58,038 nucleotides of DNA from a virus (Duplodnaviria; Caudoviricetes): positions 1 through 58,038 of IMG/VR virus record IMGVR_UViG_3300023208_000007. One strand, given 5' to 3'. The notes under the pieces were generated by a model. That model worked only from the letters and a program-made list of their open reading frames with translations. It was not told the DNA's origin and ran no database searches. The position numbers and the translations under genes are program-made. Shown here one piece after another: positions 43,401-57,249 of this stretch (position 1 is its first letter; each line of letters opens with the position of its first letter).

Positions 43401-43456
43401 CCTTTGATTTATAGGGAAGGTGGGTAACTGCCTTCCCTTCTTTTTAGAGAATTATA

Positions 43457-44662
43457 ATGTCAAAAGAAATTATAGCTATAATAGGAGCAAACTACGGAGA
43501 CGAAGGAAAAGGTCTTTTTACTGATTACTTTGCAAATGTGCGACATGATGGTATTGTTGTACGACATTCAGGCGGCGCGCAAGCTGGTCACACAGTTGTC
43601 TTAGAAGATGGGCGCCGACACATTTTTTCTCACTTTGGCTCTGGCAGCTTTATTGGTTTACCAACATTTTTAGGTAAAGAATTCGTTATTCACCCACCAG
43701 TTTTCAAACGTGAGCTTATAGAACTTTGGAAAAAGCAAGTTGATCCAAAAGTTGTATCTGACCCACGTGCAATAATCACCACTCATCTGGATGTGATTAT
43801 AAATCAAGCGCTTGAGCGCAAACGCACTGAGCGACACGGTTCAGTAGGGCTTGGATTTTGTGAAACAATTGAGCGAAATACTCGCAGTGCGTTTGGCTTT
43901 AACTTGTTAGACTTGTTTACTGTAGATCAATCTCATTTGATTGATTTTATTGTTAACAAAATGAAATTCTTAAGAAATGAATGGTTAAATACACGCCTTG
44001 AAGAGCTTGAACTAACAGAAGGCGATCTCCCTGAGTATTTTTTTGTTGACTCACATAACATGGATAAAGGTTACGCTGAGATGTGCATGTGGATTCGTCA
44101 GAATATTAAGATGGCACCCCCTGAAACACTTGATCTTTACGGCACTGTTATTTTTGAAGGATCACAGGGACTTTTGTTAGATCAAAACAGCTCTAACTTT
44201 CCTCACGTTACACGTGCAAATACTGGCGTTAAAAACGCAGTTGAAATGATCGAAGAAAGTCAGATTGATGTAAGTCAATTTAATTCAATTTACGTTAGCA
44301 GAACCTATATGACAAAGCACGGTAATGGGCCACTACCTTATGAGGATGATTCTTTTAAGTGGCCCATTGAAGATGAAACAAACATTGAGCACGAGTTTCA
44401 AGGTAAATTTCGCTCTGCCCCAATTGGCATGGATGACTTAGGCGAGCGAATAATCGCTGACTTTGATTTAATTCCAAAAAAATTTAATCCAGTTAGAAAG
44501 TTGGCAATGACTCACTTTGATAAAATAAGTGAAACCGCGGTTTTTTACATAAACACTGACGAACGCATTGAAGTATCTGGAAAAGATTACGCTGAAATGA
44601 TGATGAATGCAGCAGATTTTATGTCAAACGGTCCTACTCGTTACGATATCACAGTTTGCTGA
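43457..44662 (+). CDS. Adenylosuccinate synthetase-like protein (divergent PurA family)
   Basis: GANYGDEGKG, GGAQAGHTV, FEGSQGLLLD, PHVT, RTY.TKHG.GP. Confidence 0.85.
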   Translation: MSKEIIAIIGANYGDEGKGLFTDYFANVRHDGIVVRHSGGAQAGHTVVLEDGRRHIFSHFGSGSFIGLPTFLGKEFVIHPPVFKRELIELWKKQVDPKVVSDPRAIITTHLDVIINQALERKRTERHGSVGLGFCETIERNTRSAFGFNLLDLFTVDQSHLIDFIVNKMKFLRNEWLNTRLEELELTEGDLPEYFFVDSHNMDKGYAEMCMWIRQNIKMAPPETLDLYGTVIFEGSQGLLLDQNSSNFPHVTRANTGVKNAVEMIEESQIDVSQFNSIYVSRTYMTKHGNGPLPYEDDSFKWPIEDETNIEHEFQGKFRSAPIGMDDLGERIIADFDLIPKKFNPVRKLAMTHFDKISETAVFYINTDERIEVSGKDYAEMMMNAADFMSNGPTRYDITVC

Positions 44663-44768
44663 CTATAAATAGAATTACTATAAGAAAAACAAACAAGAAT
44701 AAGAAGAAGTAAATTTCTACTTTTTGTTGAATTTCTATAAATAATTATAGAATTTGTGAACAAAAGTA

Positions 44769-44796
44769 TGTACATTCCTGGTAGAATGTGTATAAT
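44769..44796 (+). promoter_or_regulatory. Promoter of the tRNA array leader
   Basis: TGTACA-N16-TATAAT; late TATAAATA boxes also at 44664 and 44736. Confidence 0.75.
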
Positions 44797-44835
44797 ATTA
44801 CCATACGTTAACCAAAAACAAACTTAAACACAACA

Positions 44836-44967
44836 ATGATTAAGAACATACAACGCAAACAATTTAGAGAATGGCAGCAAGATTGCCAGGATCAGTTCTG
44901 CGCTGTGATTTGGCATCGTGACGATATTAAACGCGGCTCTCCCCTTAGAGGAGGCTCTACCAGTTAA
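44836..44967 (+). CDS. Putative attenuator leader peptide (43 aa)
   Basis: MIKNIQRKQFREWQQDCQDQFCAVIWHRDDIKRGSPLRGGSTS*; A-rich 5' region without a clear SD; its 3' end carries the antiterminator strand. Confidence 0.65.
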   Translation: MIKNIQRKQFREWQQDCQDQFCAVIWHRDDIKRGSPLRGGSTS

Positions 44968-45024
44968 GTAGAAAGGTAGAAAATTAGTCTAAGGGGAATT
45001 TCCGAAAGGATTTTCCCCTTTTTT
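44940..45024 (+). terminator. Antiterminator/terminator switch (attenuator)
   Basis: tccccttaga 44940-44949 is exactly complementary to tctaagggga 44988-44997, which overlaps the left arm of terminator aaggggaatttcc-gaaa-ggattttcccctt-tttt (44991-45024). Confidence 0.75.
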
Positions 45025-45052
45025 ATTGCTCTTTAAAAATTTGGAATACATT

Positions 45053-45122
45053 CTCCCAGCCGGTGGATTCCGGACCTGACGCTTCGAACGTTGGAGGTGT
45101 GGTTCGATTCCGCATTGGGAGG
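45053..45122 (+). tRNA. tRNA-Arg(UCG), atypical D arm
   Basis: Acceptor ctcccag/ttgggag; loop cttcgaa; TTCGA T loop; no U8-A9 linker. Confidence 0.7.
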
Positions 45123-45130
45123 CAGATATT

Positions 45131-45202
45131 CTCCTTGTGGCAGATTGGATATGCAACGCGGTCCTAACGCGTAGTAAGTAGGTTCGACTCCTACCAAGGG
45201 GG
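45131..45202 (+). tRNA. tRNA-Arg(CCU)
   Basis: acgcg-gtcctaa-cgcgt anticodon arm; canonical T arm. Confidence 0.88.
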
Positions 45203-45211
45203 CAAAATGAT

Positions 45212-45282
45212 GGGCTTGAAGCTTTAAAGTGAAGCATCGGTCTTTTAAACCGAAGAAGAGGGGCCGGTACCCTCCAGGCCTA
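45212..45282 (+). tRNA. tRNA-Lys(UUU), non-canonical T loop
   Basis: tcggt-cttttaa-accga; T arm gaggg-gccggta-ccctc. Confidence 0.75.
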
Positions 45283-45291
45283 CAAATGCTA

Positions 45292-45436
45292 GCTAACGGT
45301 GGAGTGGACGCAACGCCAATGAGCGCGGTCAATGTTCTGGACCAGCAGCACTGGAAGGGAACATAGGCGAAGTCAGGAACCAAGAGTAAAGTTCGAACAT
45401 AACTTTTGGGAATTGATTATCTGTAGCCCCGTTAGC
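45292..45436 (+). ncRNA. 145-nt structured RNA inside the tRNA array
   Basis: Closing stem gctaacgg/ccgttagc; internal stems atgttc/gaacat, ccag/ctgg, ccaagagt/acttttgg. Confidence 0.6.
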
Positions 45437-45446
45437 GACTTATATT

Positions 45447-45537
45447 GGAAGCGTAGTGTAGTGGCCGCACAGCAGTTTTATACACTGCATAGCCCCAGAT
45501 TAGGGCGTAGAGATGGGTTCGATTCCCTCCGCTTCTA
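45447..45537 (+). tRNA. tRNA with UAU (Ile) anticodon and long variable arm
   Basis: gcagt-tttatac-actgc; variable hairpin gccc..gggc; acceptor ggaagcg/cgcttct. Confidence 0.7.
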
Positions 45538-45545
45538 CAAATTAT

Positions 45546-45618
45546 GCAGCTTTGGCGTAGCTGGTGCGCGCGCCCGGTTGAAGCCCGTGAGGACCAGGTT
45601 CGATTCCTGGAGGCTGCA
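45546..45618 (+). tRNA. tRNA-Phe(GAA)
   Basis: Loop ttgaagc; canonical cloverleaf. Confidence 0.85.
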
Positions 45619-45627
45619 CAAAACTTT

Positions 45628-45700
45628 GGCCGAGTAGTTCTCTGGTGAGAACACCTGTCTGTCTAACAGGTTTAGGTGGGTTCGATCCCCATCTCGGTCG
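45628..45700 (+). tRNA. tRNA-Asp(GUC)
   Basis: cctgt-ctgtcta-acagg; G73. Confidence 0.88.
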
Positions 45701-45711
45701 CATATTATAAT

Positions 45712-45786
45712 GGCGTTCGTAGCTTAAAAGTAGAGCTCCTGTCTGTGAAACAGGAAGGTACCAGTGCAAGACTGGCCGATCGCCCA
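45712..45786 (+). tRNA. tRNA-His(GUG)
   Basis: cctgt-ctgtgaa-acagg; G-1:C73; T loop tgcaaga. Confidence 0.8.
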
Positions 45787-45838
45787 CTCAACAAAAGTGC
45801 TTCTATAAATATCTAAAGCATATTTAAGAGTGTTAAAA

Positions 45839-46369
45839 ATGAAATTACGTGATATTTTAGAAGCAATTATTGATCATCCAAAACTTTCATTTAAATGGAT
45901 TGATGATCAACGATGTACATTTGAATTTAATGAAAGAATTTTTGGAATTTATATTGATTATCAAACATTATTTGAAAAATACTCAGTTGCAAATGTTTCA
46001 TTTGGAGTTTTAAAACAAAAAAGTAGATTTTTTTCTGATGAAGAAATTGATACTAAGTTAACAGGAGATGGTAAACCAAAGTTAATCTTTAGCACAGTGG
46101 CACACGCTTGTTTGGCCAATAAAAATTTAACAGGCTGTGATATGATTGCGCTTGCAGGAGCTGATGAAAAAAAGGAAAAACGAGTTATTTTATATGATGT
46201 TTTGATTTGGGAAATTCAAACGCGATTTAGTGAATTTAAAAGTAGAAATATTTTTTACATCAAAACTCCGTTTGGTATTGCAACAATTTTATCTAAATTT
46301 ATGTTAACACCAGATGAACAAAAGTTGGTTCAAGATGAATTAAAAATTTCGAAAATTGAAAAGTTATAA
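45839..46369 (+). CDS. Late hypothetical protein (MKLRDILEA N-terminus)
   Basis: TATAAATA at 45804. Confidence 0.7.
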   Translation: MKLRDILEAIIDHPKLSFKWIDDQRCTFEFNERIFGIYIDYQTLFEKYSVANVSFGVLKQKSRFFSDEEIDTKLTGDGKPKLIFSTVAHACLANKNLTGCDMIALAGADEKKEKRVILYDVLIWEIQTRFSEFKSRNIFYIKTPFGIATILSKFMLTPDEQKLVQDELKISKIEKL

Positions 46370-46374
46370 ATTAT

Positions 46375-46449
46375 GAACCCGTAGTGTAATTGGTTAACAT
46401 GCCGTCCTTTCACGTCGGAGATTTGCGAGATCATACCTCGTCGGGTTCT
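46375..46449 (+). tRNA. tRNA-Glu(UUC)
   Basis: Loop ctttcac; acceptor gaacccg/cgggttc; T loop atcatac. Confidence 0.75.
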
Positions 46450-46460
46450 CAAAAAATTAT

Positions 46461-46534
46461 TCACCCGTCTTTGCTAAAAGTAGGCGGCTTGTCTTTGAAA
46501 CAAGAGAATGTAGGTGCAAGACCTACCGGGTGAT
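46461..46534 (+). tRNA. tRNA-Gln(UUG)
   Basis: cttgt-ctttgaa-acaag; U1:A72; T loop tgcaaga. Confidence 0.75.
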
Positions 46535-46550
46535 CTGTTTATGATATAAT

Positions 46551-46636
46551 ATACCAGTATGCAAAATAGGACAAAAGCGGTCGGTCTTTCAAACCGATGT
46601 CGAAAGACGTTGCGGGTTCGAGCCCCGTCTGGTATA
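46551..46636 (+). tRNA. Type II (Leu-like body) tRNA with UUC anticodon
   Basis: tcggt-ctttcaa-accga; variable arm gtc-gaaa-gac; A73. Confidence 0.7.
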
Positions 46637-46702
46637 CAAAATAAATTGTACTTTTGCAGAAACTGTGTTATAATTATTTCTGTAGAGTACTGGAGAACTT
46701 TG

Positions 46703-47017
46703 ATGGCTAAATTGATTATTGAGTATAATAAAGATTTTGGTGATGTTGTACCTGATGGTCAAGTTCAATCATATACGTCTTATCATATTCGCCTTGCTAT
46801 TGAAGATGGTGAAAAAATCATTGTTGGTTCTGTAATTTTAATTGACTCTTTTCGTCTAGCTGTAAAGCAAGGTGAAATTTCCAACGAAGATGTTGAAATC
46901 TGGTTTAATGATGGAACTACTAGCTACACAATAACTTTAGATAAGGATGGTCGCTGCAACGTTTATCCTTTTGGATTTTGCGATGCTTATGATAATATTT
47001 TGAGAAAACTTTTGTAA
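46703..47017 (+). CDS. Stand-alone DUF3696-like domain (C-terminus of ABC/AAA_21 ATPases)
   Basis: LIDSFRLAVKQGEIS.EDV.IWF..ITLDKDG..YPFGFCD..L; early promoter at 46647. Confidence 0.6.
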   Translation: MAKLIIEYNKDFGDVVPDGQVQSYTSYHIRLAIEDGEKIIVGSVILIDSFRLAVKQGEISNEDVEIWFNDGTTSYTITLDKDGRCNVYPFGFCDAYDNILRKLL

Positions 47018-47018
47018 T

Positions 47019-47092
47019 TCACCTGTCGTCTAGAGGTAGGACCAGAGACTTTGACTCTCTTAACGCACGTTCGACCCGTGCCGGGTGATCCA
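47019..47092 (+). tRNA. tRNA-Gln(UUG)
   Basis: agaga-ctttgac-tctct; encoded CCA. Confidence 0.88.
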
Positions 47093-47118
47093 AATTTATA
47101 AAACATAGGTGAACAAAG

Positions 47119-47307
47119 ATGTCTAGAAAGATTGTTGAATTTGTTACGGTGTCTGATTGGTCTTTATCAGATTTTGATCGTGAGGTTAACTCTTATCTCA
47201 AAAATGGTTGGGAGATTCGAGGACGAGTTCAGTATGTTGTGGTAAACACAAATATTCGTTATCATCTTGAGATGGTTCGTTATGAAGATGTCGATAAGGT
47301 CGCATAA
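47119..47307 (+). CDS. DUF1737-like small protein
   Basis: F..EVN.YL.NGWEI.G. Confidence 0.6.
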   Translation: MSRKIVEFVTVSDWSLSDFDREVNSYLKNGWEIRGRVQYVVVNTNIRYHLEMVRYEDVDKVA

Positions 47308-47444
47308 TTATAAGTCAACGTTTTACTTGTTTCCGTACGTTTCATTTTCATTAGGAATACAAGGTGGTTGGTTTATAACGATAGGTTGGATGTTTAGCTT
47401 CGTGCAGCTAACCTATATTTCAACTGATGGTTTAGAAGCATAAT

Positions 47445-47516
47445 TCACGGATCTTCTAAAAGCAGGAAGCCAGTCTCTGAAACTGGAGAATGTAGGTGCA
47501 AGACCTACTCCGTGAG
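47445..47516 (+). tRNA. tRNA-Gln(CUG)
   Basis: ccagt-ctctgaa-actgg; T loop tgcaaga. Confidence 0.8.
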
Positions 47517-47521
47517 CAACT

Positions 47522-47594
47522 GGGAATATAGCTCAATTGGCAGAGCAACTGTCTCTTAAACAGTAGGTTGAGGGTTCGACTCCCTCTGTTCCCA
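47522..47594 (+). tRNA. tRNA-Lys(CUU)
   Basis: actgt-ctcttaa-acagt; canonical. Confidence 0.92.
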
Positions 47595-47602
47595 CGAAAA
47601 AT

Positions 47603-47673
47603 GGGTTATTGGTGTAATGGTAGCACAGGAATCTCCAAAATTTCTAGTCGGGGTTCAAATCCCCGGTAGCCCG
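47603..47673 (+). tRNA. tRNA-Trp(CCA)
   Basis: Loop ctccaaa; G73. Confidence 0.88.
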
Positions 47674-47705
47674 CAAAATTTACCCTCGCCCTGGGATAGG
47701 GACTT

Positions 47706-47781
47706 GTGTTTGTATACCCTCAGCCTACGAAGCTGTTGAAAGGTTAATGGAATCATGAGAGTTCGAGTCTCTCCAAGCACG
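47706..47781 (+). tRNA. Non-canonical tRNA-like RNA with ACG (Arg) anticodon
   Basis: Acceptor gtgtttg/caagcac and a normal T arm; anticodon arm cagc-ctacgaa-gctg precedes a D-loop-like AATGG segment. Confidence 0.55.
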
Positions 47782-47905
47782 CAATAATTTTATTTTTATC
47801 TCCATATAAAATTGGAATAAGTTTTTCAATTGCTAACATTTTTTCGTTTACTTTTTAGCCGTTTTGATTATAATTAAATCAAATCCATTCATAAGGTAAA
47901 CGAAG

Positions 47906-48517
47906 ATGACTGATTTCACTAAATTCAACATAGCGCTGAAATACTACTTAGTCGGCAAACAATATCACGTAGCGTTGGAAGCTCTTGGTTTTTTGAAGCG
48001 ATACAGCACAGGTCTTCGGAAGGATGGTAAAACTCCTGAAGCTCAGCACGCAATTGAAGTTGCATTGAATGTGATTCTACTAAGAGATGTGCGTGATGAA
48101 GAGCTCACGATTGTGGTTGCACTTCTCCATGACCTCATTGAGGACTACTGTTCGTATGAGGAAATTTTCAATGAATTTGGGGTAGTCGTAGCAGACAAGG
48201 TTTGGCTTCTCTCAAAAAAGGAGAAAATAACAGGTGCAAAGAAGGACCTTGATGAATATTTCGATGGAATCGCAGCTGACTATGTATGTTCGATTGTCAA
48301 AGGATGTGATAGAATAAACAACATTCGAACAATGGTAGGTGTCTTCACGGAGCAGAAGCAGCGTGACTACATGATTGAAACTCACCGGTACTTTTTGCCG
48401 ATGTTAAAGATTGCCGCTGATGACCACCCTCTTCAGCTACTTGCCTATATGGCAATACGAAGAGAGCTGAAGAATCAGATGGTGCTGATTTCAGCAATTT
48501 TGGATGCAAAGAATTAA
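47906..48517 (+). CDS. HD-domain hydrolase, RelA/SpoT hydrolase (Mesh1)-like
   Basis: RKDG.TP..H..EVA, ALLHDLIED, VK.CDRINN. Confidence 0.8.
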   Translation: MTDFTKFNIALKYYLVGKQYHVALEALGFLKRYSTGLRKDGKTPEAQHAIEVALNVILLRDVRDEELTIVVALLHDLIEDYCSYEEIFNEFGVVVADKVWLLSKKEKITGAKKDLDEYFDGIAADYVCSIVKGCDRINNIRTMVGVFTEQKQRDYMIETHRYFLPMLKIAADDHPLQLLAYMAIRRELKNQMVLISAILDAKN

Positions 48518-48518
48518 T

Positions 48519-48592
48519 GTTCGTGTCGGCTAACTGGTTAGGCGGCTAGTTTCTCAGACTGGAAAATGCGGGTTCGACTCCCGTCACGAACT
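48519..48592 (+). tRNA. tRNA-Glu(CUC)
   Basis: ctagt-ttctcag-actgg; acceptor gttcgtg/cacgaac. Confidence 0.82.
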
Positions 48593-48611
48593 CAAATTTT
48601 GGAGATAAGCG

Positions 48612-48806
48612 ATGACTGATCAAAACATAGTTGAAAAATCATATTCTGAAACGCTGATGGATAGAGTTGATCAGTTCGTAGAATTGCAGTTGCAAATTGC
48701 TGAAGCAAAGTAGAGAGTTTTGGAACAAACAGGATTTTACACTGACCGCGAAATTGATAAGCGATCAAGTAGAGATGCTAAGCTCTACAGAATGTTAGAA
48801 GGATAA
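48612..48806 (+). pseudogene. Small ORF with an in-frame TAG (pseudogene or amber read-through)
   Basis: GGAG SD; 33 codons, TAG at 48711, then 30 further sense codons to TAA. Confidence 0.45.
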
Positions 48807-48810
48807 TTTT

Positions 48811-48883
48811 AGCCGCATAGCTCAGTTGGTAGAGCAAACGACCGATAATCGTTAGGTCACAGGTTCAAGTCCTGTTGTGGCTA
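48811..48883 (+). tRNA. tRNA-Ile(GAU)
   Basis: aacga-ccgataa-tcgtt; canonical body. Confidence 0.88.
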
Positions 48884-48889
48884 CATTTT

Positions 48890-48964
48890 AGCCCATTAAC
48901 TCAAAAGTAGAGTACTCCGCTGATAACGGAGAAGTAGTAGGAGCGTTACCTACATGGGCTACCA
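48890..48964 (+). tRNA. tRNA-Ile(GAU), non-canonical T loop
   Basis: ctccg-ctgataa-cggag; T loop agcgtta; encoded CCA. Confidence 0.78.
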
Positions 48965-49006
48965 ATTACCGGAGAATAAAGATGACACGTAATATCAAAA
49001 ATAATT

Positions 49007-49077
49007 ACCCTCGCCGGCGGATTCCGGCCGCAGGCCTTCTAAACCAGCAGGTGGTGGTTCGACTCCACTCGAGGGTG
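49007..49077 (+). tRNA. tRNA-Arg(UCU), atypical
   Basis: accctcg/cgagggt; D arm ccgg-cggatt-ccgg with no linker; loop cttctaa; mismatched anticodon stem. Confidence 0.6.
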
Positions 49078-49096
49078 CAAAAATGAGGAACATTAA

Positions 49097-49555
49097 GTGG
49101 AATACACAACGATAAATGATTGGTTGAAAGAAAACCAGCGCTTAAAGCTTCTTGTTAAGACGCGCCCAAACCTTCGTACTAATGAAATGACGATTTACGT
49201 TGGTTTTGGTTTTCTTCAAAACTTGTATGATACTGAAAAGGATCTTACAGAGACAGACCGCATTTTGCTTGAGTACCCTGAACGCTGGTTAAATATCATT
49301 GAACAGCGTGCTTTGTATAATATGATTTTTGAACGTTGCCCAAATGTCGAAGAAATTATGATCCTCACGCACAGTGTTTACATTATTCAGTGTACACCGG
49401 CTCAATGTTGTTTTATAATAGATGTAGATGAAAGAGACAAGTACAAGGAGAACTATCCATTTGACAAGACAAACAGAATGTCTCCTGAAAATGACGTAAT
49501 GAACTTGCTAGGCTATCAGCACGGTAAGTTGAATGTATTCCAAATGAAATCATAG
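49097..49555 (+). CDS. ABC-ATPase C-terminal-half-like protein (no Walker A)
   Basis: ILLEYPERWL..EQ and IMILTHSVYII resemble Walker B/D-loop and H-loop. Confidence 0.5.
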   Translation: MEYTTINDWLKENQRLKLLVKTRPNLRTNEMTIYVGFGFLQNLYDTEKDLTETDRILLEYPERWLNIIEQRALYNMIFERCPNVEEIMILTHSVYIIQCTPAQCCFIIDVDERDKYKENYPFDKTNRMSPENDVMNLLGYQHGKLNVFQMKS

Positions 49556-49629
49556 TACCGCGACCTAGCTGGCGTTAGGACTAGTCTGCAAAACTATGGA
49601 GCGGGGTTCGATTCCCCGGCGGTACTCCA
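49555..49629 (+). tRNA. tRNA-Cys(GCA)
   Basis: Loop ctgcaaa; U73; encoded CCA. Confidence 0.85.
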
Positions 49630-49653
49630 ATTTAAGAGGTAATCCCATAAAAA

Positions 49654-49854
49654 ATGGAAGAACTTGAACTTCAATCAGAAGATCAGATTGATCTTCAAAA
49701 ACACTGGCAATGGCTCTATAAAACACGTAATTCTCCTCTTTGGGAAATAACTTCCTTTTATGCGACTAAAGAAGAATTTTTAACAATAATGGAAAAAACG
49801 TTAATTGATGTTGAACATTTTTGTAAAGCAAAAATTACGAAAATTAAAGTTTAA
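49654..49854 (+). CDS. Hypothetical protein
   Basis: Open ORF. Confidence 0.5.
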   Translation: MEELELQSEDQIDLQKHWQWLYKTRNSPLWEITSFYATKEEFLTIMEKTLIDVEHFCKAKITKIKV

Positions 49855-49902
49855 ATTTTCACTATAAATAAAAAATAAATCACAAATAATTTGGAGTGAA
49901 AA

Positions 49903-50283
49903 ATGAAGAAACTTGCAATTTTACCTATTTTCTTTTTAAGCGGTTGTGCAACATATGGTAGGTATGAACCTACTGTCGATGTAGCAGCTGATCGTAATCC
50001 TCAATTTCTTCAACAAGATACTGCTGATTGTCGTGAGTTAGCAAAAAATGCTTCAAGCACTGGTAAAAATACTGCAATGGGAGTTGGAGCTGGCGCTCTT
50101 CTTGGCGGGGCGGCCGGGGCAGCAATTGGTGCGGTAGTTGGTAATCCTGCAACTGGAGCTGCGTTAGGTGCTGCTGCAGGTGGTATCGGCGGCGGAGCTA
50201 ACGCTGGAATGGATGCTGATAATCAGTTCAAGCGCGCCTACATCAATTGCATGCGTGGTCGCGGGCATAACGTAATTGATTAA
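49903..50283 (+). CDS. Glycine-zipper lipoprotein
   Basis: LSGC lipobox; GA..GAA.GAA.GA zipper; CMRGRGH; TATAAATA at 49863. Confidence 0.85.
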   Translation: MKKLAILPIFFLSGCATYGRYEPTVDVAADRNPQFLQQDTADCRELAKNASSTGKNTAMGVGAGALLGGAAGAAIGAVVGNPATGAALGAAAGGIGGGANAGMDADNQFKRAYINCMRGRGHNVID

Positions 50284-50291
50284 TAAAAATT

Positions 50292-50525
50292 ATGATGATA
50301 AATATTTTTGATGAACTTTCTAAAGAGACTCTGCAATTAACAGTATTTGAGTTGTTAACATGTGCTGATGAAGTAAAAAATTTGCCTTATCGAGAAGCCC
50401 GTGAAATTGTAAGAGCGAAGGCTGTAAATCTTAATATTTCAGCGGAGATATATGAAGACCTTATTATGGGCATTTTGTTTCAGCGTAATTTTTTTGATGC
50501 AACCAGAGGTGACAGCAATGGCTAA
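50292..50525 (+). CDS. Hypothetical protein
   Basis: Operonic ORF. Confidence 0.55.
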   Translation: MMINIFDELSKETLQLTVFELLTCADEVKNLPYREAREIVRAKAVNLNISAEIYEDLIMGILFQRNFFDATRGDSNG

Positions 50526-50688
50526 TAAAGCGTACAAAGTCGAACTTTCAATTAAACCAGGTCAACCTAACTCTATGAGACAGCACTTGTCAGTTATAAT
50601 TGAAGCCCCCTCGCAGCCAGCTGCTCGCTCGATGGCTGAAGCTCAGTATGGGTCTCACTACCGAATCCTTTCAGTATTCCAGCGGTAA
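50518..50688 (+). CDS. Small hypothetical protein
   Basis: GAGGT SD; IEA....AR.MAEAQYG. Confidence 0.6.
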   Translation: MANKAYKVELSIKPGQPNSMRQHLSVIIEAPSQPAARSMAEAQYGSHYRILSVFQR

Positions 50689-50697
50689 TGGTTGACT

Positions 50698-50770
50698 GAG
50701 TCTATAGTTTAAAAGTAAAACACCGAACTCATAATTCGGCAGATGCAGGTGCAAGACTCTGCTGGACTCA
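50698..50770 (+). tRNA. tRNA with CAU anticodon (Met or Ile2)
   Basis: ccgaa-ctcataa-ttcgg; irregular T arm. Confidence 0.72.
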
Positions 50771-50777
50771 CTTTAAG

Positions 50778-51407
50778 ATGAATTATCATTTCATTTATAA
50801 AATTACTTGTTTACTAACAGACCAATATTATATTGGAATGCATTCTACAAATAATTTAAACGATGGATATTTTGGAAGTGGAAAAAGATTAAAAACATCA
50901 ATAAAGCGTTTTGGTAAAGAAAACCATAAATTTGAAATAATTGAATTTCTTAAAAATAGAAAAGAATTATCAAAACGTGAAAAAGAAATTGTTAATGAAA
51001 AATTAATTGGTGACATTTTATGTTTAAATGTTGCAAATGGCGGAGAAGGTGGTTTTATAAGTAAATATGGTGCAAGTAAAGGCGGGTTAAGTTGGCAAAA
51101 AAATATAACAAAAAATGAATTTTCAAGAAGAGCAAAAAAAGCAAATAACACAACAAAAGAACGCCATAACGTTGTTTTATCATTTAAAAACAGAAAACAT
51201 AATGAAGAAACTAAGCAGAAAATTGGTTTAGCTAATTCAGCTCATCAAAAAGGAGAAGGTAATTCTCAATTTGGTAAGATGTGGATTTATAATTGTGACA
51301 CCTTAGAAAGTGTTAGAATTATGAAAACAGAACCTATTCCAGAAGGCTGGGTTAAAGGAAGAAAAATAAAGAATGCCAAAAGCAGAAGAAGTAAAATATC
51401 TCCGTGA
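50778..51407 (+). mobile_element. Seg-like GIY-YIG/NUMOD3 homing endonuclease next to a tRNA
   Basis: IYKIT..YYIGMHST..GYFGSG; KHNEETKQKI; GEGNSQFG.MWI; GWVKGR. Confidence 0.85.
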
Positions 51408-51564
51408 AACTCTTGGAATTAGTCTGCAGGAGGAGGCGGCAATTCTTCGAAAAAACGAAGTAAAAGAATCTTTAAATTGGTTAGTGGATAATGCAAAAAG
51501 TCTTGATGATATAAAATCAATTCTAAAAAGATTAGGAAATGATATTTTCAAAATAGAAGAATAA
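51373..51564 (+). CDS. Hypothetical protein
   Basis: AAGGA SD. Confidence 0.5.
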   Translation: MPKAEEVKYLRETLGISLQEEAAILRKNEVKESLNWLVDNAKSLDDIKSILKRLGNDIFKIEE

Positions 51565-51715
51565 ATATGAGATGGTACATTATAGCTATAGGCGTCCTAA
51601 TAATTCTGTATGGGTTATTTCGGCTAATCAAAAACCATAAAACACGAGAAGGAACACTTGAGGTTATTCTCGGCATTTTTGAAATCATAGGCGAAATCTT
51701 AGGAGCACTAGTTTA

Positions 51716-52246
51716 ATGCTAAAAACAGATACACATTTATTCTTTTGGAAGGAAAAATTTTCAAATTGGTTCTTCTCTCCAATTGTTTTTACTGATCCAT
51801 TTTCTGGCGCATCAATTAATTTCACTTGCACTGAACAGTCGTTTATGTATTTCAAGGCTATCACATTTGATGACTATGAAACTGCCAACAAAATTATAGC
51901 TGCTCAAACTCCAAAAGAACAGAAAGAACTTGGACGACAAGTGAAAAATTTTAATCAAGGCGTTTGGGATGACGAAAAGTTTGCCTGTATGTACTGGGCA
52001 AACGCAATGAAATACACACAGCATGAAAACCTTAAAGCTGAATTAATTGCAACAACACCACTAAAATTAGTTGAAGCAAGTCCAGTTGATAAGATTTGGG
52101 GAATAGGATTAGCTGAAGATAATCCTCTTGCGCTCGATGAAGCTACTTGGCAAGGACAAAATTTATTAGGAGAGTGTTTAACACAATTGCGTAATGACAT
52201 TATTGCCGGAAACGTCGTTGACATTAAGACTGGACTTTTATTTTAA
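51716..52246 (+). CDS. NADAR family protein (YbiA/T4 gp30.3-like)
   Basis: FSNW, EQ.FMY.KA..F.D, K.LGR.V, VEASP.DKIWGIG, GQNLLG..L..R. Confidence 0.92.
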   Translation: MLKTDTHLFFWKEKFSNWFFSPIVFTDPFSGASINFTCTEQSFMYFKAITFDDYETANKIIAAQTPKEQKELGRQVKNFNQGVWDDEKFACMYWANAMKYTQHENLKAELIATTPLKLVEASPVDKIWGIGLAEDNPLALDEATWQGQNLLGECLTQLRNDIIAGNVVDIKTGLLF

Positions 52247-52310
52247 AGATTGTATTTTTAAGCAGCCGCGATTTATAATAGCCACGTTCAATTAAGACGT
52301 GGAGGTTGTT

Positions 52311-52898
52311 ATGTACGATTATGATGAAAAGGTTTATGTTCCAAACTTAGTCGAAACTTTTTCAAAAGCTAAAGAACGCAATGGTGCTTTTGGAAATATG
52401 ACGGGTGGTTTCCCATTGATTGTGGGAAATGTTAGGGCAAATTGTTCTGAAAGTTTGTACCAGTCACTTCGCTTCACATCATATCCTAATTTACAACGGG
52501 AAATTTTACCTCTTGGTGGAATGGGTTGTAAAATGTCTTCCAAAAAGTACAGAAAGGATTTCACGCGTTCAGATTGGGATGATGTCAGAGTTGATTTTAT
52601 GGAATGGGTAATCAGAGTTAAACTTGCTTGTCATCCAATCAATTTTGGTCTCTTACTTCTCGCAACTCAAGGACGTCAAATTGTAGAATTTTCAAAAAAG
52701 GATAGTTTTTGGGGTGCAAAGCCTCAAGTTGATGGAACTTTGAAAGGTCAGAATGTTTTAGGTCAGATTCTTATGAAAGTAAGAGATGATTATAGAAGTG
52801 ATAGAGCCAATGGAGTTGAAATCTATAAGACTGTTAGACCTGTCGATGTTGAAAACTTTTCGTTGTACGGGAATCCCATAGGAGTTCTGACTTTCTAA
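52311..52898 (+). CDS. Second NADAR family protein
   Basis: GNM, SESLYQ..RF, DWD..M, IVE.S.KD.FWG, GQNVLG..LM.VR. Confidence 0.85.
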   Translation: MYDYDEKVYVPNLVETFSKAKERNGAFGNMTGGFPLIVGNVRANCSESLYQSLRFTSYPNLQREILPLGGMGCKMSSKKYRKDFTRSDWDDVRVDFMEWVIRVKLACHPINFGLLLLATQGRQIVEFSKKDSFWGAKPQVDGTLKGQNVLGQILMKVRDDYRSDRANGVEIYKTVRPVDVENFSLYGNPIGVLTF

Positions 52899-53001
52899 AA
52901 TCATTTTCAGTCTGATATCTATAAATAAATTCAGTCAGAATAAAATCTGACTGAATGTTTAATTGTTTAATTGTTTATTTTAATTTGTTTGGAGAAAGTT
53001 T

Positions 53002-54066
53002 ATGAAAAACTATATTGGCATTTCTCGAGATCACTCGGGCTCAATGAGCCATCTTCGTCGTCCTGCAGCTGCAGATTACAACGCCAACATCGAAGTTATT
53101 AAGGAAAACGCGCTTTCCAGCGGTCAAGACACCATCGTTTCCGTTGCTGAATGTGGCGTCAATGATGGAAACTACAGAGCAGTTTCACGCATTGTAGTTA
53201 CAAATTCAAGCGTTCAGGCTCTTCAGCCAATGTCAACGGCTGATTATCACGCCGATGGTCGTGCAACTCCGCTTTTCGATAGCGTTGGTCAATTAATCGA
53301 GCTTTTCGAAAGTGTACCTGATTACAACGATCCTGAAGTTTCCTTCCTCGTAATGGCAATTACTGACGGTGAGCACAACCAAGACGGCGCCTGGAACGCG
53401 GCAAAGTTATCTGCTAAAATCAAGCAACTTCAAGCAACTGATCGTTGGTCATTTGTTTTTCGCGTTCCGCGTGGTTACGCGCAACGTCTCTCTCGTATGC
53501 TTGGAATCCCAATGGGTAATATCCTTGAATGGGAACAGAGTGAACGTGGTGTTGAAGCGGCTTCGCAGTCTACCCGCGCTGCCTTCAACTCATACTACCA
53601 GAGTCGTTCAGCCGGTTCTACCTCAACCACGAAGTTCTTTACTGATCTCAGTAGTGTTTCAACAGATGATTTGGCAGAAGCTGCAATTGACGTTTCAGGA
53701 CAGATTACACTTTGGACTGTTAACAGTGGTGAGCAAGACACTGGTATTCGTGAGCTTGTTGAAGCTCGTCTAGGTGGAAATCAGAAAATGAAGAAAGGAG
53801 CGGCTTTCTATCAGCTTACAAAAACTGAATCAAACGTTCAGTCTTACAAGCAAATCATTGTTCGTGACAAGAATACTGGCATTATTTACGCTGGCGGAAC
53901 CCGGGGGCTGCTTGGTCTTCCCAACAACCAGAATATTCGTCTAGCACCTGGAAATCATGATCATTACGATATTTTCATTCAGTCAACGTCAGTAAACCGT
54001 AAATGTCCAGCTGGTTCAACGGTTCTTTACTGGCCTAATGTTGGAGTTCCATTTAAAAATTCTTAA
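53002..54066 (+). CDS. vWA domain protein
   Basis: DHSGSM, TPLFDSVG, ITDGE; TATAAATA at 52920. Confidence 0.85.
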   Translation: MKNYIGISRDHSGSMSHLRRPAAADYNANIEVIKENALSSGQDTIVSVAECGVNDGNYRAVSRIVVTNSSVQALQPMSTADYHADGRATPLFDSVGQLIELFESVPDYNDPEVSFLVMAITDGEHNQDGAWNAAKLSAKIKQLQATDRWSFVFRVPRGYAQRLSRMLGIPMGNILEWEQSERGVEAASQSTRAAFNSYYQSRSAGSTSTTKFFTDLSSVSTDDLAEAAIDVSGQITLWTVNSGEQDTGIRELVEARLGGNQKMKKGAAFYQLTKTESNVQSYKQIIVRDKNTGIIYAGGTRGLLGLPNNQNIRLAPGNHDHYDIFIQSTSVNRKCPAGSTVLYWPNVGVPFKNS

Positions 54067-54875
54067 AGATTTAAAAGCTTTTTTAATAAACGGCGATTAA
54101 TTCCAAGAGTAATCATAGCTTCTTTTTTACAGTCATATTGAATTCCATTTATAATGACTGGGATTGCTCTTGGATTCCCACCATTTTTAAAATTTTTAGT
54201 TCGGTTAATTATTGCTTCTTTACTTTGTTTCTTACCTTTTTTGGTCAGTGACATTTTTAATTTGGCTTCCAATGAATGTTTTTTGCCTTTATTATTTTCT
54301 GAAATTTTTTGACGTGTATCAAAGTTGTGATGTTTATCTTTAAAAGAAGCAAATTTTGCTTTTCTTTCTTCAGAAGACATATTTGCTATGGTTATTTGTG
54401 CTTTTTTACCGCCAAAACCAAATTTTGCTTTTCTTTCTTCAGAAGACATATTTGCTATGGTTTTATTTCTTGTTAATTTTTGTTTTTCAATTGACCATAA
54501 AGGTTTAGACTTACCTTTTAGCGCTTTCGATATATTATTGCGATGTTCTAAAGTAGTAAATTTTCTTGAAGGATATAAAGTGCCTTTTAAAGCTTTGTTT
54601 AAGTTTAATTTATCATCAATATTATCTTGAATAAGTTGAAATTCAAACTCAAAAGCATCGTGTTTTGTAAAAAATTCAGCTAAAATAGTGATTTCAAAAT
54701 TTTCAAATCCTAATTCTTTTATTGTTTTTGATGATGTAAAATATTTTTTACCTAAATCAGACGTTGATGGAACCTTGTTTGCGCTACGATATCCAAAATA
54801 ATATTGTTTAGTAGTTTTATGCGTTAGTAAATAAACATATGGTAAAATACGTTCGGATACAAATTGACAGTTCAT
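54063..54875 (-). mobile_element. Free-standing homing endonuclease (GIY-YIG-like with NUMOD3), paralog of 31783-32613
   Basis: PYVY..YYFGYR..YFTSS..ILAEFF; KHSLEAK; duplicated vWA gene end at 54909-54956. Confidence 0.85.
54350..54462. repeat. ~44-nt direct repeat inside the endonuclease gene
   Basis: caaattttgcttttctttcttcagaagacatatttgctatggtt at 54350 and 54419 (TIANMSSEERKAKF twice). Confidence 0.9.
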
Positions 54876-54908
54876 ATAAATATTTCTTTAAAAAAAGATA
54901 TTTATACT

Positions 54909-54956
54909 TGGCCTAATGTTGGTGTAAGTTTTAAGGAAGGTAAATCAGCTTTCTAA
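54909..54956 (+). pseudogene. Displaced original 3' end of the vWA gene 53002
   Basis: WPNVGVSFKEGKSAF* versus the current WPNVGVPFKNS*; 14 identical nt tggcctaatgttgg. Confidence 0.8.
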
Positions 54957-54963
54957 ATTGACA

Positions 54964-55038
54964 AGTGTCATCATCTAAATGGTAAAAGACCTCCTCTCTT
55001 TAAGTGGAGAAATGTAGGTTCGAGTCCTACTGACACTT
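54964..55038 (+). tRNA. Atypical tRNA, loop UCUUUAA (UUU anticodon with C33); identity uncertain
   Basis: agtgtca/tgacact acceptor; canonical T arm; U73. Confidence 0.6.
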
Positions 55039-55131
55039 CTTTTATTTTCAACCAGATATGTACATTTTATAGTTTCAAATTATAATTAAACCAATGCCAA
55101 TCTATTAGCAATGATGCTATGAAAGGACACG

Positions 55132-56025
55132 ATGTTACAAACTGCTAAATTTCAAAAGTGTATTTTAGATTCATTAGATGAACAAATCGCAATAATTTTG
55201 AAATCTGGACAAATTGTATATGTTAATTCTGCCTGGGTTCAATTTGGGCGCAATAATGGTGCGCCTCCAGATTATGATTGGATTGGCAAAAATTATCTTC
55301 AAGCGTGTAAAGAAGCTACCCCATTAATTTCAGACGGGTTAAAACGTTTCATAGCTGGTAAGATTGATTGGTTTGAACATGAATACCCTTGCGAAGTAAG
55401 CGGTAAAAGTCGCTGGTTTATGATGAAAATTACTCGTTTAAATGATGAGTACACTGATCATTTTTGCATAATGCACCTTGATATTACGCAGCGAAAGTTA
55501 AATGAACTAAAAATTGAGCAGCTTTCAAGAATTGATCATTTAACTGGGCTTGCAAATCGTCGAGCATTTGATGAAGTTTTGAGTTCTGAGTGGAAAAGAG
55601 CTGTTCGCTTTAAGCATAATTTAACGCTTATAATGCTAGATGTAGATCACTTTAAGTTGTATAATGATACTTTTGGTCATGCTCGAGGTGATAAAGTACT
55701 GGCAAAAATTGGAGAAACTTTAAAAGAATTTGCAAAGCGACCTGGTGATTTATCTGCTCGTTATGGTGGTGAAGAATTTGCACTAATTTTAGCAGCAACA
55801 AGTAAAACATCATCACTTTGTATAGCGACGCAGATTAGAAAAACAATTGAAAAGTTAAATATTGCGCATGTAAAAAACTGCGTTACAGTAAGTGTTGGAG
55901 TTGCAACAATAAAACCAAGACGCGAAGAACATTTTTCAATGTTAATTGAAGCAGCGGATGAAGCACTTTATGAAGCAAAACACGCAGGCAGAAACTGTGT
56001 GAAGTGTTCTTGTAAGTGTAAGTAG
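55132..56025 (+). CDS. PAS-GGDEF diguanylate cyclase
   Basis: PAS segment; DHLTGLANRR, DVDHFK.YND.FGH..GD, RPGD I-site, RYGGEEF, AD.ALY.AK..GRN. Confidence 0.93.
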   Translation: MLQTAKFQKCILDSLDEQIAIILKSGQIVYVNSAWVQFGRNNGAPPDYDWIGKNYLQACKEATPLISDGLKRFIAGKIDWFEHEYPCEVSGKSRWFMMKITRLNDEYTDHFCIMHLDITQRKLNELKIEQLSRIDHLTGLANRRAFDEVLSSEWKRAVRFKHNLTLIMLDVDHFKLYNDTFGHARGDKVLAKIGETLKEFAKRPGDLSARYGGEEFALILAATSKTSSLCIATQIRKTIEKLNIAHVKNCVTVSVGVATIKPRREEHFSMLIEAADEALYEAKHAGRNCVKCSCKCK

Positions 56026-56045
56026 ATTTTTATAAATAAAATAAA

Positions 56046-56118
56046 CGTGGTATGGCCGAAAAGTGAAGCGCCAGATTCATAACCTGGTTTTAAGTGGGAG
56101 CGTTACCCACTACCACGA
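56046..56118 (+). tRNA. tRNA with CAU anticodon (Met), non-canonical T loop
   Basis: Loop ttcataa; T loop agcgtta; TATAAATA at 56031. Confidence 0.72.
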
Positions 56119-56182
56119 CATCTTAACTTTTAAAGGAGAATGACAATGCGAACGTGAACTTAACAACAAAGGAGCACTTAGC

Positions 56183-56497: not shown

Positions 56498-56501
56498 TGG
56501 G

Positions 56502-56759: not shown

Positions 56760-56822
56760 CTCAGTCGGTAGAGCACTTCATTGGTAATGAAGAGGTCACG
56801 GGTTCGATTCCCGTCATCAGCT
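56750..56822 (+). tRNA. tRNA-Thr(GGU)
   Basis: cttca-ttggtaa-tgaag; canonical. Confidence 0.93.
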
Positions 56823-56828
56823 CAAGTT

Positions 56829-56900: not shown

Positions 56901-56902
56901 CA

Positions 56903-57184: not shown

Positions 57185-57249
57185 TATTGTACTTTTTTGT
57201 TCATCTTGTTATAATTTTACCATACGCTAATTGATGCTGGAGATTTAAG

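What the first reader, a model, noticed from the sequence alone, without database searches (positions are those of the whole stretch)
44769..45122. Multi-amino-acid translational attenuator gating the phage tRNA array (candidate tRNA-depletion sensor)
Seen: promoter (44769), a 43-codon ORF (44836-44967), an intrinsic terminator (44991-45024), then the first tRNA (45053). Bases 44940-44949 inside the ORF are a perfect 10-bp complement of 44988-44997, the terminator's left arm. An inner stem 44956-44961/44975-44980 extends this, so antiterminator and terminator are mutually exclusive. Of the first 33 codons, 30 encode M, I, K, Q, R, F, E, W, D, C or H, exactly the amino acids of the tRNAs at 45053-50770. 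The usually common L, S, G, P, T and Y are absent from that stretch. Codons ATA, AGA, AAG and CAG match the array's UAU, UCU, CUU and CUG anticodons. Established: trp/his-type attenuators use this geometry, and host defences such as PrrC, PARIS AriB and retron/TA anticodon nucleases destroy tRNAs. Inference: a ribosome reaching the stop codon masks the antiterminator and transcription ends; stalling at any depleted tRNA allows read-through and supplies replacement tRNAs. Caveats: no clear SD, and internal promoters (45804, 46647, about 47850) may also drive distal tRNAs.
Basis: partly seen in the sequence, partly recalled or inferred. Interest (0 to 1): 0.95.

Follow-up and report, generated by a model that had tools for sequence, protein, structure and literature searches.

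The report
Codon-matched leader attenuator before phage tRNAs
In front of a lake phage's tRNA genes sits a tiny reading frame spelled almost only in the amino acids those tRNAs carry, wired to a switchable transcription stop, so the phage may make these tRNAs mainly when ribosomes struggle to decode, but translation of the frame is unproven.

Summary
The 43-codon ORF is 44836-44967. A 10-bp plus 6-bp antiterminator (44940-44997) overlaps the left arm of a strong terminator (44991-45020). tRNA genes start at 45053.

- **Pairing:** it arises in 6 of 20,000 shuffles.
- **Composition:** 30 of the first 33 codons encode the 11 amino acids of the tRNAs between this terminator and the next strong one. 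The other frames give 9, 13 and 11. None of 20,000 shuffles, and none of 13,279 windows in the phage's own proteins, reach 30.
- **Boundary:** the bias ends where the antiterminator arm begins.

My best reading, at about 0.5, is a trp/his-type leader-peptide attenuator applied to tRNA genes.

- **No ribosome-binding site:** the ORF has none at all, the weakest of 49 genes compared.
- **No relatives:** the peptide and DNA are orphans, so conservation could not be tested.
- **Equilibrium folding:** it favours the terminator, so the switch would have to be kinetic.
- **Distant phages:** four with arrays next to a related gene lack such a leader. phiCbK gave partial support.

The defence-sensing idea is untested. 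This scan noted the same idea before on other phages. Five literature searches found no published account.

The parts
44664..44671 (+). TATAAATA motif (T4-late-promoter-like), first of two upstream of the leader
   Evidence: 17 copies in the window against 4.2 expected; 0 of 100 shuffles reach 17. That this motif is a late promoter is recalled from T4 biology and was not tested here.
44736..44743 (+). Second TATAAATA motif, inside an 8-bp inverted repeat (44733-44740 / 44745-44752)
   Evidence: for the motif. I read the inverted repeat from the sequence. Function not tested.
44769..44796 (+). Sigma-70-like promoter (TGTACA, 16 nt, TATAAT). The expected start near 44803 is inferred.
   Evidence: 10 of 12 matches. 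Such sites are not enriched in the region (25 found, 22.8 expected), so this is plausible, not shown.
44803..44835 (+). G-poor, unstructured 5' leader without a Shine-Dalgarno sequence
   Evidence: 44803-44870 folds at only -1.9 kcal/mol; anti-SD duplex +1.7 kcal/mol; 0 of 49 genes are weaker (gene median -6.3).
44836..44967 (+). Leader ORF, 43 codons plus TAA. Codons 1-33 (44836-44934) are the proposed sensor part; codons 34-43 are encoded by the antiterminator's 5' arm.
   Evidence: for the ORF. for composition: 30 of 33 residues in the block's amino-acid set; 27 of 33 codons decodable by the block's anticodons against 1 of the last 10; 0 of 8,395 gene windows reach 27.
44902..44937 (+). Hairpin inside the ORF, just before the antiterminator. 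A role as an RNA polymerase pause hairpin is inference.
   Evidence: -12.5 kcal/mol, z -1.7 (16 of 200 shuffles as stable), so it is not significant on its own.
44940..44997 (+). Antiterminator: outer stem 44940-44949/44988-44997, inner stem 44956-44961/44975-44980. The stop codon 44965-44967 lies in its apical loop.
   Evidence: -23.9 kcal/mol, z -3.8. It is the only fold of the nascent RNA up to 45014 (P 0.999).
44991..45027 (+). Intrinsic terminator: stem 44991-44998/45013-45020, inner stem 45001-45003/45008-45010, then TTTTATT
   Evidence: -18.0 kcal/mol, z -3.8. It is one of three strong terminators between 43 and 58 kb.
45053..50771 (+). Regulated tRNA block: Arg, Arg, Lys, Ile, Phe, Asp, His, Glu, Glu, Gln, Gln, Lys, Trp, Glu, Ile, Ile, (Arg-TCT), Cys, Met, with interspersed ORFs that include an HD_4 hydrolase (47906-48517)
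   Evidence: for the tRNAs; for the HD_4 protein. The first + strand promoter-like sites after the terminator are TATAAATA at 45804 and sigma-70-like sites at 46700 and 47847.
52922..52961 (+). Next strong terminator; likely end of the transcription unit that defines the amino-acid set (inference)
   Evidence: -14.9 kcal/mol. No terminator of -12 or stronger lies between 45020 and 52922.

Best explanation
A ribosome-mediated (leader-peptide) transcription attenuator that gates a phage tRNA transcription unit.

Transcripts from the promoter(s) at 44664-44796 carry a 43-codon ORF. Its first 33 codons are written almost only in the amino acids, and mostly in the codons, of the tRNAs that lie behind the terminator.

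- Smooth decoding: the ribosome runs into codons 35-43 and the stop codon. It unwinds or covers the 5' arm of the antiterminator (44940-44961) while RNA polymerase makes 44998-45028. The terminator hairpin then forms and transcription ends 25-30 nt before the first tRNA.
- Stalling or no loading: if the ribosome stalls anywhere in codons 2-31, or never loads, the antiterminator forms first. It sequesters 7 of the 8 bases of the terminator's left arm, and polymerase reads on into the tRNA genes.

The logic is negative feedback on decoding capacity for exactly those codon families.

Shown: the sequence features, their statistics and the folding order. Inferred: translation of the ORF, coupling to polymerase, and the outcome of stalling.
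For: 1. The alternative pairing is real and rare: 6 of 20,000 shuffles. The antiterminator and terminator each have z -3.8. Four other terminators of the window lack such a partner.

2. Folding order: up to 45014 the nascent RNA holds the antiterminator at P 0.999. The terminator wins only once its last bases are out. The two states differ by about 2 kcal/mol (-29.9 against -32.2), so the switch is bistable.

3. The composition match is specific to the reading frame.
- 30 of 33 residues in frame, against 9, 13 and 11 in the other frames, and 0 of 20,000 shuffles.
- 0 of 13,279 windows of the phage's own proteins reach 30.
- At codon level 27 of 33 against a background of 0.43, P 5.6e-6, with 0 of 8,395 windows reaching 27.
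- Only translation reads a frame.

4. The bias ends at codon 33, and the antiterminator arm starts at codon 35. Only 1 of the last 10 codons is decodable by the block.

5. The amino-acid set is bounded by two strong terminators, 44991 and 52922. It was not drawn by an arbitrary cut.

6. No promoter-like site lies between the terminator and tRNAs 45053-45785. At least seven tRNAs therefore need read-through.

7. The start region is unstructured (-1.9 kcal/mol).

8. Spot check in an unrelated phage, phiCbK.
- Annotated terminators sit directly before tRNA blocks.
- The 45-aa gp083 before the Pro/Lys/Leu/Ala/Ser block has 31 of 45 residues in that set; 4 of 10,000 shuffles reach this.
- The ORF stays in frame in 5 of 5 phiCbK-like phages compared, including across a 9-nt insertion.
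Against: 1. No Shine-Dalgarno sequence. Anti-SD duplex energy is +1.7 kcal/mol; 0 of 49 genes are weaker (median -6.3) and only 3.5% of random positions are as poor. By a crude motif test, 36 of 60 ORFs have an SD.

2. No conservation test was possible.
- The peptide matches only itself among 5.8 billion protein clusters.
- Among 1.84 billion representatives it matches itself plus one spurious repeat protein.
- There is no related DNA in phage records or viral contigs.
- The four metagenome runs laid hold only identical pieces.

3. At equilibrium the terminator wins (P 0.73-0.96) for every upstream stall position tested. Read-through on stalling therefore rests on unshown kinetic trapping.

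4. Distant phages with tRNA arrays beside a related PurA-like gene lack a matched leader.
- In G001 the terminator simply follows a 496-aa gene.
- In the L032 family a 49-aa ORF with a good SD has 14 of 49 residues in its array's set, by my estimate about background.
- My screen found no such leader in TM30, Va1 or Tonenili.

5. Three Arg codons (CGC, CGT, CGC) have no canonical cognate in the block. Anticodons TCG, CCT and CTC are not sampled.

6. In phiCbK the other two candidate leaders are not significant: 12 of 32 (1,054 of 10,000 shuffles) and 3 of 20.

7. Internal promoter-like sites (45804, 46700, 47847) could feed the distal tRNAs independently.

8. The stop codon is only 23 nt from the terminator stem. 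A paper whose abstract start I saw in a listing (PMC4824070) reports that a ribosome close to a terminator suppresses it.
Confidence: 0.5

Rival explanations
1. A transcription attenuator that is real but not read by ribosomes. The antiterminator/terminator switch is set by a protein, a small molecule, a tRNA or polymerase speed, and the ORF is not translated.
For: The pairing statistics and bistability hold without any ORF. The leader lacks an SD. The leader as a whole is more structured than shuffles (z -2.74).
Against: No Rfam family matches 44660-45130 at E<=10 apart from noise, so there is no T-box and no known riboswitch. This rival leaves the frame-specific match to the tRNA block unexplained (0 of 20,000 shuffles; other frames 9-13 of 33).
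Confidence: 0.2
2. No regulation by the leader. A leaky or temporally gated terminator, read through later in infection as with delayed-early genes of T4-like phages (recalled), lies after a chance ORF. The upstream complement only weakens it constitutively.
For: Another strong terminator (43413-43438) also sits 19 nt before a gene, the PurA-like gene at 43457, with no room for a promoter. Read-through of terminators may therefore be general in this phage. A 43-codon ORF alone is unremarkable in 38% GC DNA. There is no conservation evidence.
Against: Two independent improbable features coincide: the 10-bp complement (P 0.0003) and the composition match (fewer than 1 in 20,000). The boundary between biased and unbiased codons also falls at the antiterminator arm.
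Confidence: 0.2
3. A free-standing gene for a 43-aa protein with its own promoter and terminator. The tRNAs are expressed by basal read-through.
For: The promoter-ORF-terminator layout is that of a mini-gene. In the L032 family a 49-aa ORF with a good SD and a terminator precedes a tRNA array without any codon match.
Against: There is no SD, no homologue anywhere and no Pfam family. This rival explains neither the composition match nor the stop codon lying inside a structure that competes with the terminator.
Confidence: 0.1

Closest known systems
Leader-peptide attenuators of amino-acid operons (trpL, hisL, leuL, pheL; multivalent thr and ilvGMEDA) and of pheST (pheM). Textbook knowledge, recalled. 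The abstracts of PMC3082878 and PMC6614838 were seen in listings.
   Same: - Short promoter-proximal ORF.
- Intrinsic terminator before the first regulated gene.
- Mutually exclusive antiterminator whose 5' arm lies at the ORF's end.
- Leader enriched in the codons whose decoding is being sensed.
- About 60 nt from the stop codon to the termination point, much as I recall for trp.
   Different: - The regulated genes are tRNAs, not biosynthetic enzymes or a synthetase.
- 11 amino acids are sampled once to six times each, instead of runs of one to three.
- There is no Shine-Dalgarno sequence.
- There is no strong 1:2 'protector' hairpin, so absence of translation would favour read-through rather than super-attenuation.
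Drug-induced leader-peptide attenuators of translation-rescue and resistance genes (vmlR, mef/mel, yxjB). Abstract starts seen in listings: PMC9226507, PMC6851288 and PMC4335068.
   Same: A stalled ribosome on a leader ORF switches a terminator off, so that a factor which repairs translation is made.
   Different: Those sense an antibiotic bound to the ribosome at specific peptide contexts. Here the stall would come from a shortage of decoding tRNAs, and the product is the tRNAs themselves.
Inducible long tRNA array (trn operon) of Anabaena sp. PCC 7120 (abstracts read: PMC8421152; PMC10272220)
   Same: A supernumerary tRNA array that is silent by default and induced when translation is impaired.
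   Different: Control there is by the ribbon-helix-helix repressor TrcR at the promoter, not by a leader peptide and terminator. It is cellular, not phage.
T-box riboswitches (recalled)
   Same: Terminator/antiterminator leaders that sense the state of a tRNA.
   Different: They bind uncharged tRNA directly and regulate synthetase or amino-acid genes. No T-box match was found here, and the signal here is frame-specific.
Candidate leaders before tRNA blocks of phiCbK-like Caulobacter phages
   Same: A small ORF enriched in the block's amino acids, then a terminator, then a tRNA block (gp083: 31 of 45; 4 of 10,000 shuffles).
   Different: There is no sequence similarity. Each phiCbK block has its own leader, and the match there is weaker. 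Two of three candidates were not significant in my check.

Membership tests
Leader-peptide (ribosome-mediated) transcription attenuators | Short ORF between the promoter and the first regulated gene | tested here: met
   43 codons, 44836-44967.
Leader-peptide (ribosome-mediated) transcription attenuators | Intrinsic terminator between the leader ORF and the regulated genes | tested here: met
   44991-45027, -18.0 kcal/mol, z -3.8. The first tRNA is at 45053.
Leader-peptide (ribosome-mediated) transcription attenuators | Mutually exclusive antiterminator that a ribosome at the ORF's end would block | tested here: met
   44940-44997 shares 44991-44997 with the terminator, and the stop codon lies in its loop. 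P 0.0003 by shuffles. A mask at codons 36-40 abolishes it in silico.
Leader-peptide (ribosome-mediated) transcription attenuators | Leader enriched in codons tied to the regulated function | tested here: met
   30 of 33 residues and 27 of 33 codons match the downstream tRNA block; 0 of 20,000 shuffles.
Leader-peptide (ribosome-mediated) transcription attenuators | Efficient translation initiation (SD plus start codon) | tested here: not met
   An ATG is present, but anti-SD pairing is +1.7 kcal/mol, the weakest of 49 genes. The region is unstructured, so SD-independent initiation is not excluded.
Leader-peptide (ribosome-mediated) transcription attenuators | The leader is translated, and stalling changes read-through | not testable with these tools
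   No RNA run holds the stretch. This needs reporters, Ribo-seq or Term-seq.
Leader-peptide (ribosome-mediated) transcription attenuators | Upstream protector (1:2) pairing that gives termination when the leader is not translated | tested here: not met
   The hairpin 44902-44937 does not overlap the antiterminator. Only a small local hairpin within the 5' arm competes with it.
Leader-peptide (ribosome-mediated) transcription attenuators | ORF and alternative pairing conserved in relatives | tested here: inconclusive
T-box riboswitch and other Rfam cis-regulatory leaders | Match to a curated covariance model | tested here: not met
   Nothing but noise at E<=10 in 44660-45130, and nothing in the leader at E<=1 in 43500-58038.

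The most novel reading that the evidence does not exclude
The element is a general decoding-failure sensor used as counter-defence. When host tRNAs of these 11 families are cut or blocked by defence nucleases or tRNA-modifying toxins, or when ribosomes stop loading at all, the antiterminator wins. The phage then switches on a unit with about 19 replacement tRNAs and an HD_4 phosphohydrolase. An RNA ligase and a CCA-adding enzyme are encoded elsewhere in the window. Together with the similar leaders this scan noted in unrelated phages, this would mean phages have repeatedly evolved trp-style attenuation to control tRNA supply.
Probability: 0.2. Interest if true: 0.9.

Novelty: new variant of a known kind. 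Interest (0 to 1): 0.7.

Why it matters
Why phages carry tRNA genes, and how they regulate them, is an old open question. Current ideas are codon compensation and escape from tRNA-cleaving defences (abstracts seen for PMC10264068, PMC11464382 and PMC11555353).

A leader ORF that tests decoding of exactly the codon families served by the array would show that the phage measures tRNA sufficiency and supplies tRNAs on demand. It would extend classical attenuation to tRNA genes. It would also give a compact, easily testable sensor: reporter fusions, start-codon and stem mutants, tRNA depletion.

In five full-text searches I found no paper describing leader-peptide control of tRNA genes.

Tried and rejected
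**Relatives.**
- blastn of 44700-45130 against phage records gave no match.
- tblastn of the peptide gave only two chance hits at E 5.
- The PurA-like neighbour gave at best 43% identity in viral contigs (80 loci kept) and in metagenome contigs (80 loci kept).
- The HD_4 protein found no relative.
- A gapped pattern of the antiterminator arms found 0 stretches, and a 20-mer of the first tRNA found 0.
- The peptide matched itself only in 5.8 billion clusters.
- In 1.84 billion representatives it matched itself plus P0002, a 1,507-aa repeat protein whose score is the sum of 17 weak 18-residue matches and is spurious.
- The search of earlier findings by sequence and by relatives gave no look-alike.

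**Sequencing runs.**
- 10 lake-water runs hold the stretch, and no RNA holder is listed.
- I laid 4 of the 10 (X6, X8, X9, X10). They gave only short contig pieces identical to the window, with no differences, so there is no variation to use. The parts of the stretch without cover mean nothing.

**Other tRNA arrays.**
- Of 162 sequences scanned, 20 have 3 or more tRNAs.
- Terminators within 110 nt upstream of a tRNA were found in the L032 family, L145, L147, L154 and the window.
- Only the window has a codon-matched ORF.
- In G001, TM30, Va1 and Tonenili my screen found none. The screen needs a hairpin of -10.5 kcal/mol or stronger within 130 nt of a tRNA, so weaker designs would be missed.

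**Readings considered and rejected.**
- A known riboswitch or T-box: no Rfam match.
- An alternative start codon with an SD: the frame opens at 44812 and ATG 44836 is the first start (and the sequence).
- GGAGG at 44950-44954 as an SD for a downstream gene: no start codon follows (sequence).
- Minus-strand function of the terminator: the neighbouring genes are on the + strand.
- TAG recoding affecting the ORF: its stop is TAA. TAG ends 3 of 49 genes.
Full report
**What the window is.** It is a 58,038-bp IMG/VR virus record, estimated at about 25% of a genome, with 37.8% GC. Ten lake-water metagenome runs hold the stretch. Genes are overwhelmingly on the + strand, and most carry GGAG-type ribosome-binding sites: 36 of 60 ORFs by a crude motif test. 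TATAAATA, the T4 late-promoter motif as I recall it, occurs 17 times against 4.2 expected. The window encodes a tRNA nucleotidyltransferase (8440-9621), an RNA ligase (25076-26287), FtsH, NAMPT, a NUDIX/NMNAT protein, TelA and TerC. It also holds a long tRNA region from 45053 to the contig end.

**The observation.**
- The ORF 44836-44967 has 43 codons and ends in TAA.
- 44940-44949 is the exact reverse complement of 44988-44997, and 44956-44961 of 44975-44980.
- Together these form a 58-nt antiterminator of -23.9 kcal/mol (z -3.8; 0 of 200 shuffles as stable).
- It shares 44991-44997 with the left arm of a terminator (44991-45020 plus a T run; -18.0 kcal/mol, z -3.8).
- This terminator is one of only three strong terminators between 43 and 58 kb.
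- A 10-bp perfect complement to the terminator's left arm region arises in the shuffled upstream 182 nt in 6 of 20,000 trials.
- Four other terminators of the window have complements of 5, 7, 5 and 9 nt.

**The composition claim.** The tRNAs between this terminator and the next strong one (52922-52961) are Arg, Arg, Lys, Ile, Phe, Asp, His, Glu, Glu, Gln, Gln, Lys, Trp, Glu, Ile, Ile, a weak Arg-TCT, Cys and Met. That is 11 amino acids, which make up 46.3% of the phage's proteins.
- Of the first 33 codons, 30 encode these amino acids, and none encodes L, S, G, P, T or Y.
- The binomial probability is 8.5e-8.
- None of 13,279 33-residue windows in 65 long ORFs exceeds 26.
- The runner-up among 386 small ORFs has 24.
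- The other two frames and the reverse complement give 9, 13 and 11.
- 20,000 dinucleotide-preserving shuffles give 17.6 +/- 2.6 with a maximum of 27.
- At codon level, with strict wobble, 27 of 33 codons are read by the block's anticodons, against 43% in genes (P 5.6e-6; 0 of 8,395 windows reach 27). Only 1 of the last 10 codons is.

The bias stops at codon 33 and the antiterminator arm begins in codon 35. Without that cut the score is 31 of 43, P 5.5e-4.

**Geometry.** I assumed a footprint of about 15 nt behind and 12 nt ahead of the A-site codon; this figure is recalled.
- A stall with the A site at codons 2-31 leaves 44940 onward free.
- A ribosome at codons 36-43, or at the stop codon, covers or has just unwound the 5' arm and the inner stem.
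- The stop codon lies about 60 nt before the termination point, similar to what I recall for trp.
- The nascent RNA holds the antiterminator at P 0.999 until position 45014 has emerged. Once 45020 is out, the equilibrium flips to the terminator (P 0.95), whatever upstream stall mask is applied.
- The two states differ by about 2 kcal/mol.

The element is thus a bistable, kinetically decided switch. This is the regime in which a ribosome holding the 5' arm would decide the outcome. It also means that read-through on stalling is not predicted by thermodynamics alone.

**Need for read-through.** No sigma-70-like site and no TATAAATA lies between 45027 and 45804. The seven tRNAs at 45053-45785 can therefore only be transcribed through this terminator. 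Distal tRNAs may also be fed from 45804, 46700 and 47847.

**The main weakness.**
- The 33-nt leader before the ATG has no purine-rich tract. Its best pairing with a generic anti-SD is +1.7 kcal/mol, weaker than all 49 genes compared (median -6.3) and matched by only 3.5% of random positions.
- About five of the 49 genes also lack an SD, and the start region is unstructured. SD-independent initiation is therefore possible but unshown.
- No known RNA family matches the leader.

**Comparative evidence for this element could not be obtained.** No related DNA or peptide exists in any collection I could reach. The metagenome runs I laid hold only identical sequence.

**Is the design general?** I checked other arrays.
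- Among distant phages that also place a tRNA array beside a PurA-like gene, none has a matched leader. The 209-kb G001 has 43 tRNAs, but its only tRNA-adjacent strong terminator follows a 496-aa gene.
- The L032 family has a promoter, an SD, a 49-aa ORF, a terminator and then tRNA-His, but only 14 of 49 residues are in the array's set.
- Following a lead from earlier notes of this scan, I looked at phiCbK, where annotated terminators directly precede three tRNA blocks.
- The 45-aa gp083 before the Pro/Lys/Leu/Ala/Ser block has 31 of 45 residues in that set (4 of 10,000 shuffles; other frames 19 and 20).
- That ORF keeps its frame in 5 of 5 phiCbK-like phages, including across a 9-nt insertion.
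- The two other candidate leaders are not significant: 12 of 32 (1,054 of 10,000 shuffles) and 3 of 20.

This is partial, independent support that such leaders exist elsewhere. It is not proof.

**Verdict.** The features are real, and jointly they are very unlikely by chance. The frame-specific codon match is hard to explain without translation. I therefore favour a leader-peptide attenuator of a tRNA unit (0.5) over:
- an RNA- or protein-set attenuator (0.2);
- an unregulated leaky terminator with a chance ORF (0.2);
- a free-standing mini-gene (0.1).

The proposal that it senses tRNA destruction by host defences is an attractive inference. An RNA ligase, a CCA-adding enzyme and an HD_4 hydrolase are in the same contig, but the proposal is untested.

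Five full-text searches found no published leader-peptide control of tRNA genes. The nearest case in print is the Anabaena trn array, induced by translational stress through the repressor TrcR (abstracts). This scan has noted the same idea before on other phages. Those notes are leads, not evidence.

Noticed in passing
window 47706-47781: tRNA-like element below the Rfam threshold (26.5 bits). It has a good acceptor stem, a T arm and an anticodon loop reading ACG (Arg), but no normal D arm and a long extra region. If functional it would read the leader's CGC and CGT codons, giving 30 of 33 decodable.
   Followed up: partly
window 45053-45123 and 49007-49078: Two atypical tRNA-Arg genes (TCG, TCT) share an unusual D-arm sequence. 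ARAGORN calls them (the second only at a relaxed threshold), but Rfam scores them poorly (14.9 bits for the first).
   Followed up: partly
window 47906-48517: An HD_4 (RelA/SpoT-type hydrolase domain) protein is encoded inside the tRNA unit (Pfam 8.2e-11; PHROG 15275). It could hydrolyse alarmones or pyrophosphorylated tRNA ends; that function is recalled, not tested.
   Followed up: partly
window 57860-57936: tRNA with anticodon CTA (amber suppressor type). TAG ends only 3 of 49 genes (TAA 33, TGA 13). Several distant PurA-linked phage loci (L010, L012, L025, the L032 family) also carry CTA tRNAs. Possible TAG reassignment was not tested.
   Followed up: partly
window 43457-44662: A PurA-like / PurZ-like adenylosuccinate synthetase (PHROG 1211, '2-aminooxy adenylosuccinate synthetase'). 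At most 43% identical to anything found. A strong terminator (43413-43438) lies directly before it with no room for a promoter.
   Followed up: partly
window 8440-9621 and 25076-26287: A tRNA nucleotidyltransferase (CCA-adding type) and an RNA ligase, a possible tRNA repair pair.
   Followed up: no
window 44733-44752: An 8-bp perfect inverted repeat with a 4-nt spacer overlaps the TATAAATA at 44736. It could be an operator or chance in AT-rich DNA.
   Followed up: no
window 48430-48495: The terminator at the end of the HD_4 gene (48466-48495), 24 nt before tRNA-Glu(CTC), has a 9-nt upstream complement at 48430 (duplex -15.9 kcal/mol). It may be a second, weaker alternative pairing.
   Followed up: no
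window 51716-52246 and 55132-56025: A NADAR domain protein and a PAS-GGDEF diguanylate cyclase, encoded next to the tRNA region.
   Followed up: no
L173 (Caulobacter phage CcrBL10) 576-596: In CcrBL10 a tRNA-Thr follows the two tRNA-Pro genes behind the gp083-like leader, which is rich in Thr. phiCbK's annotation shows a gap at that place.
   Followed up: no
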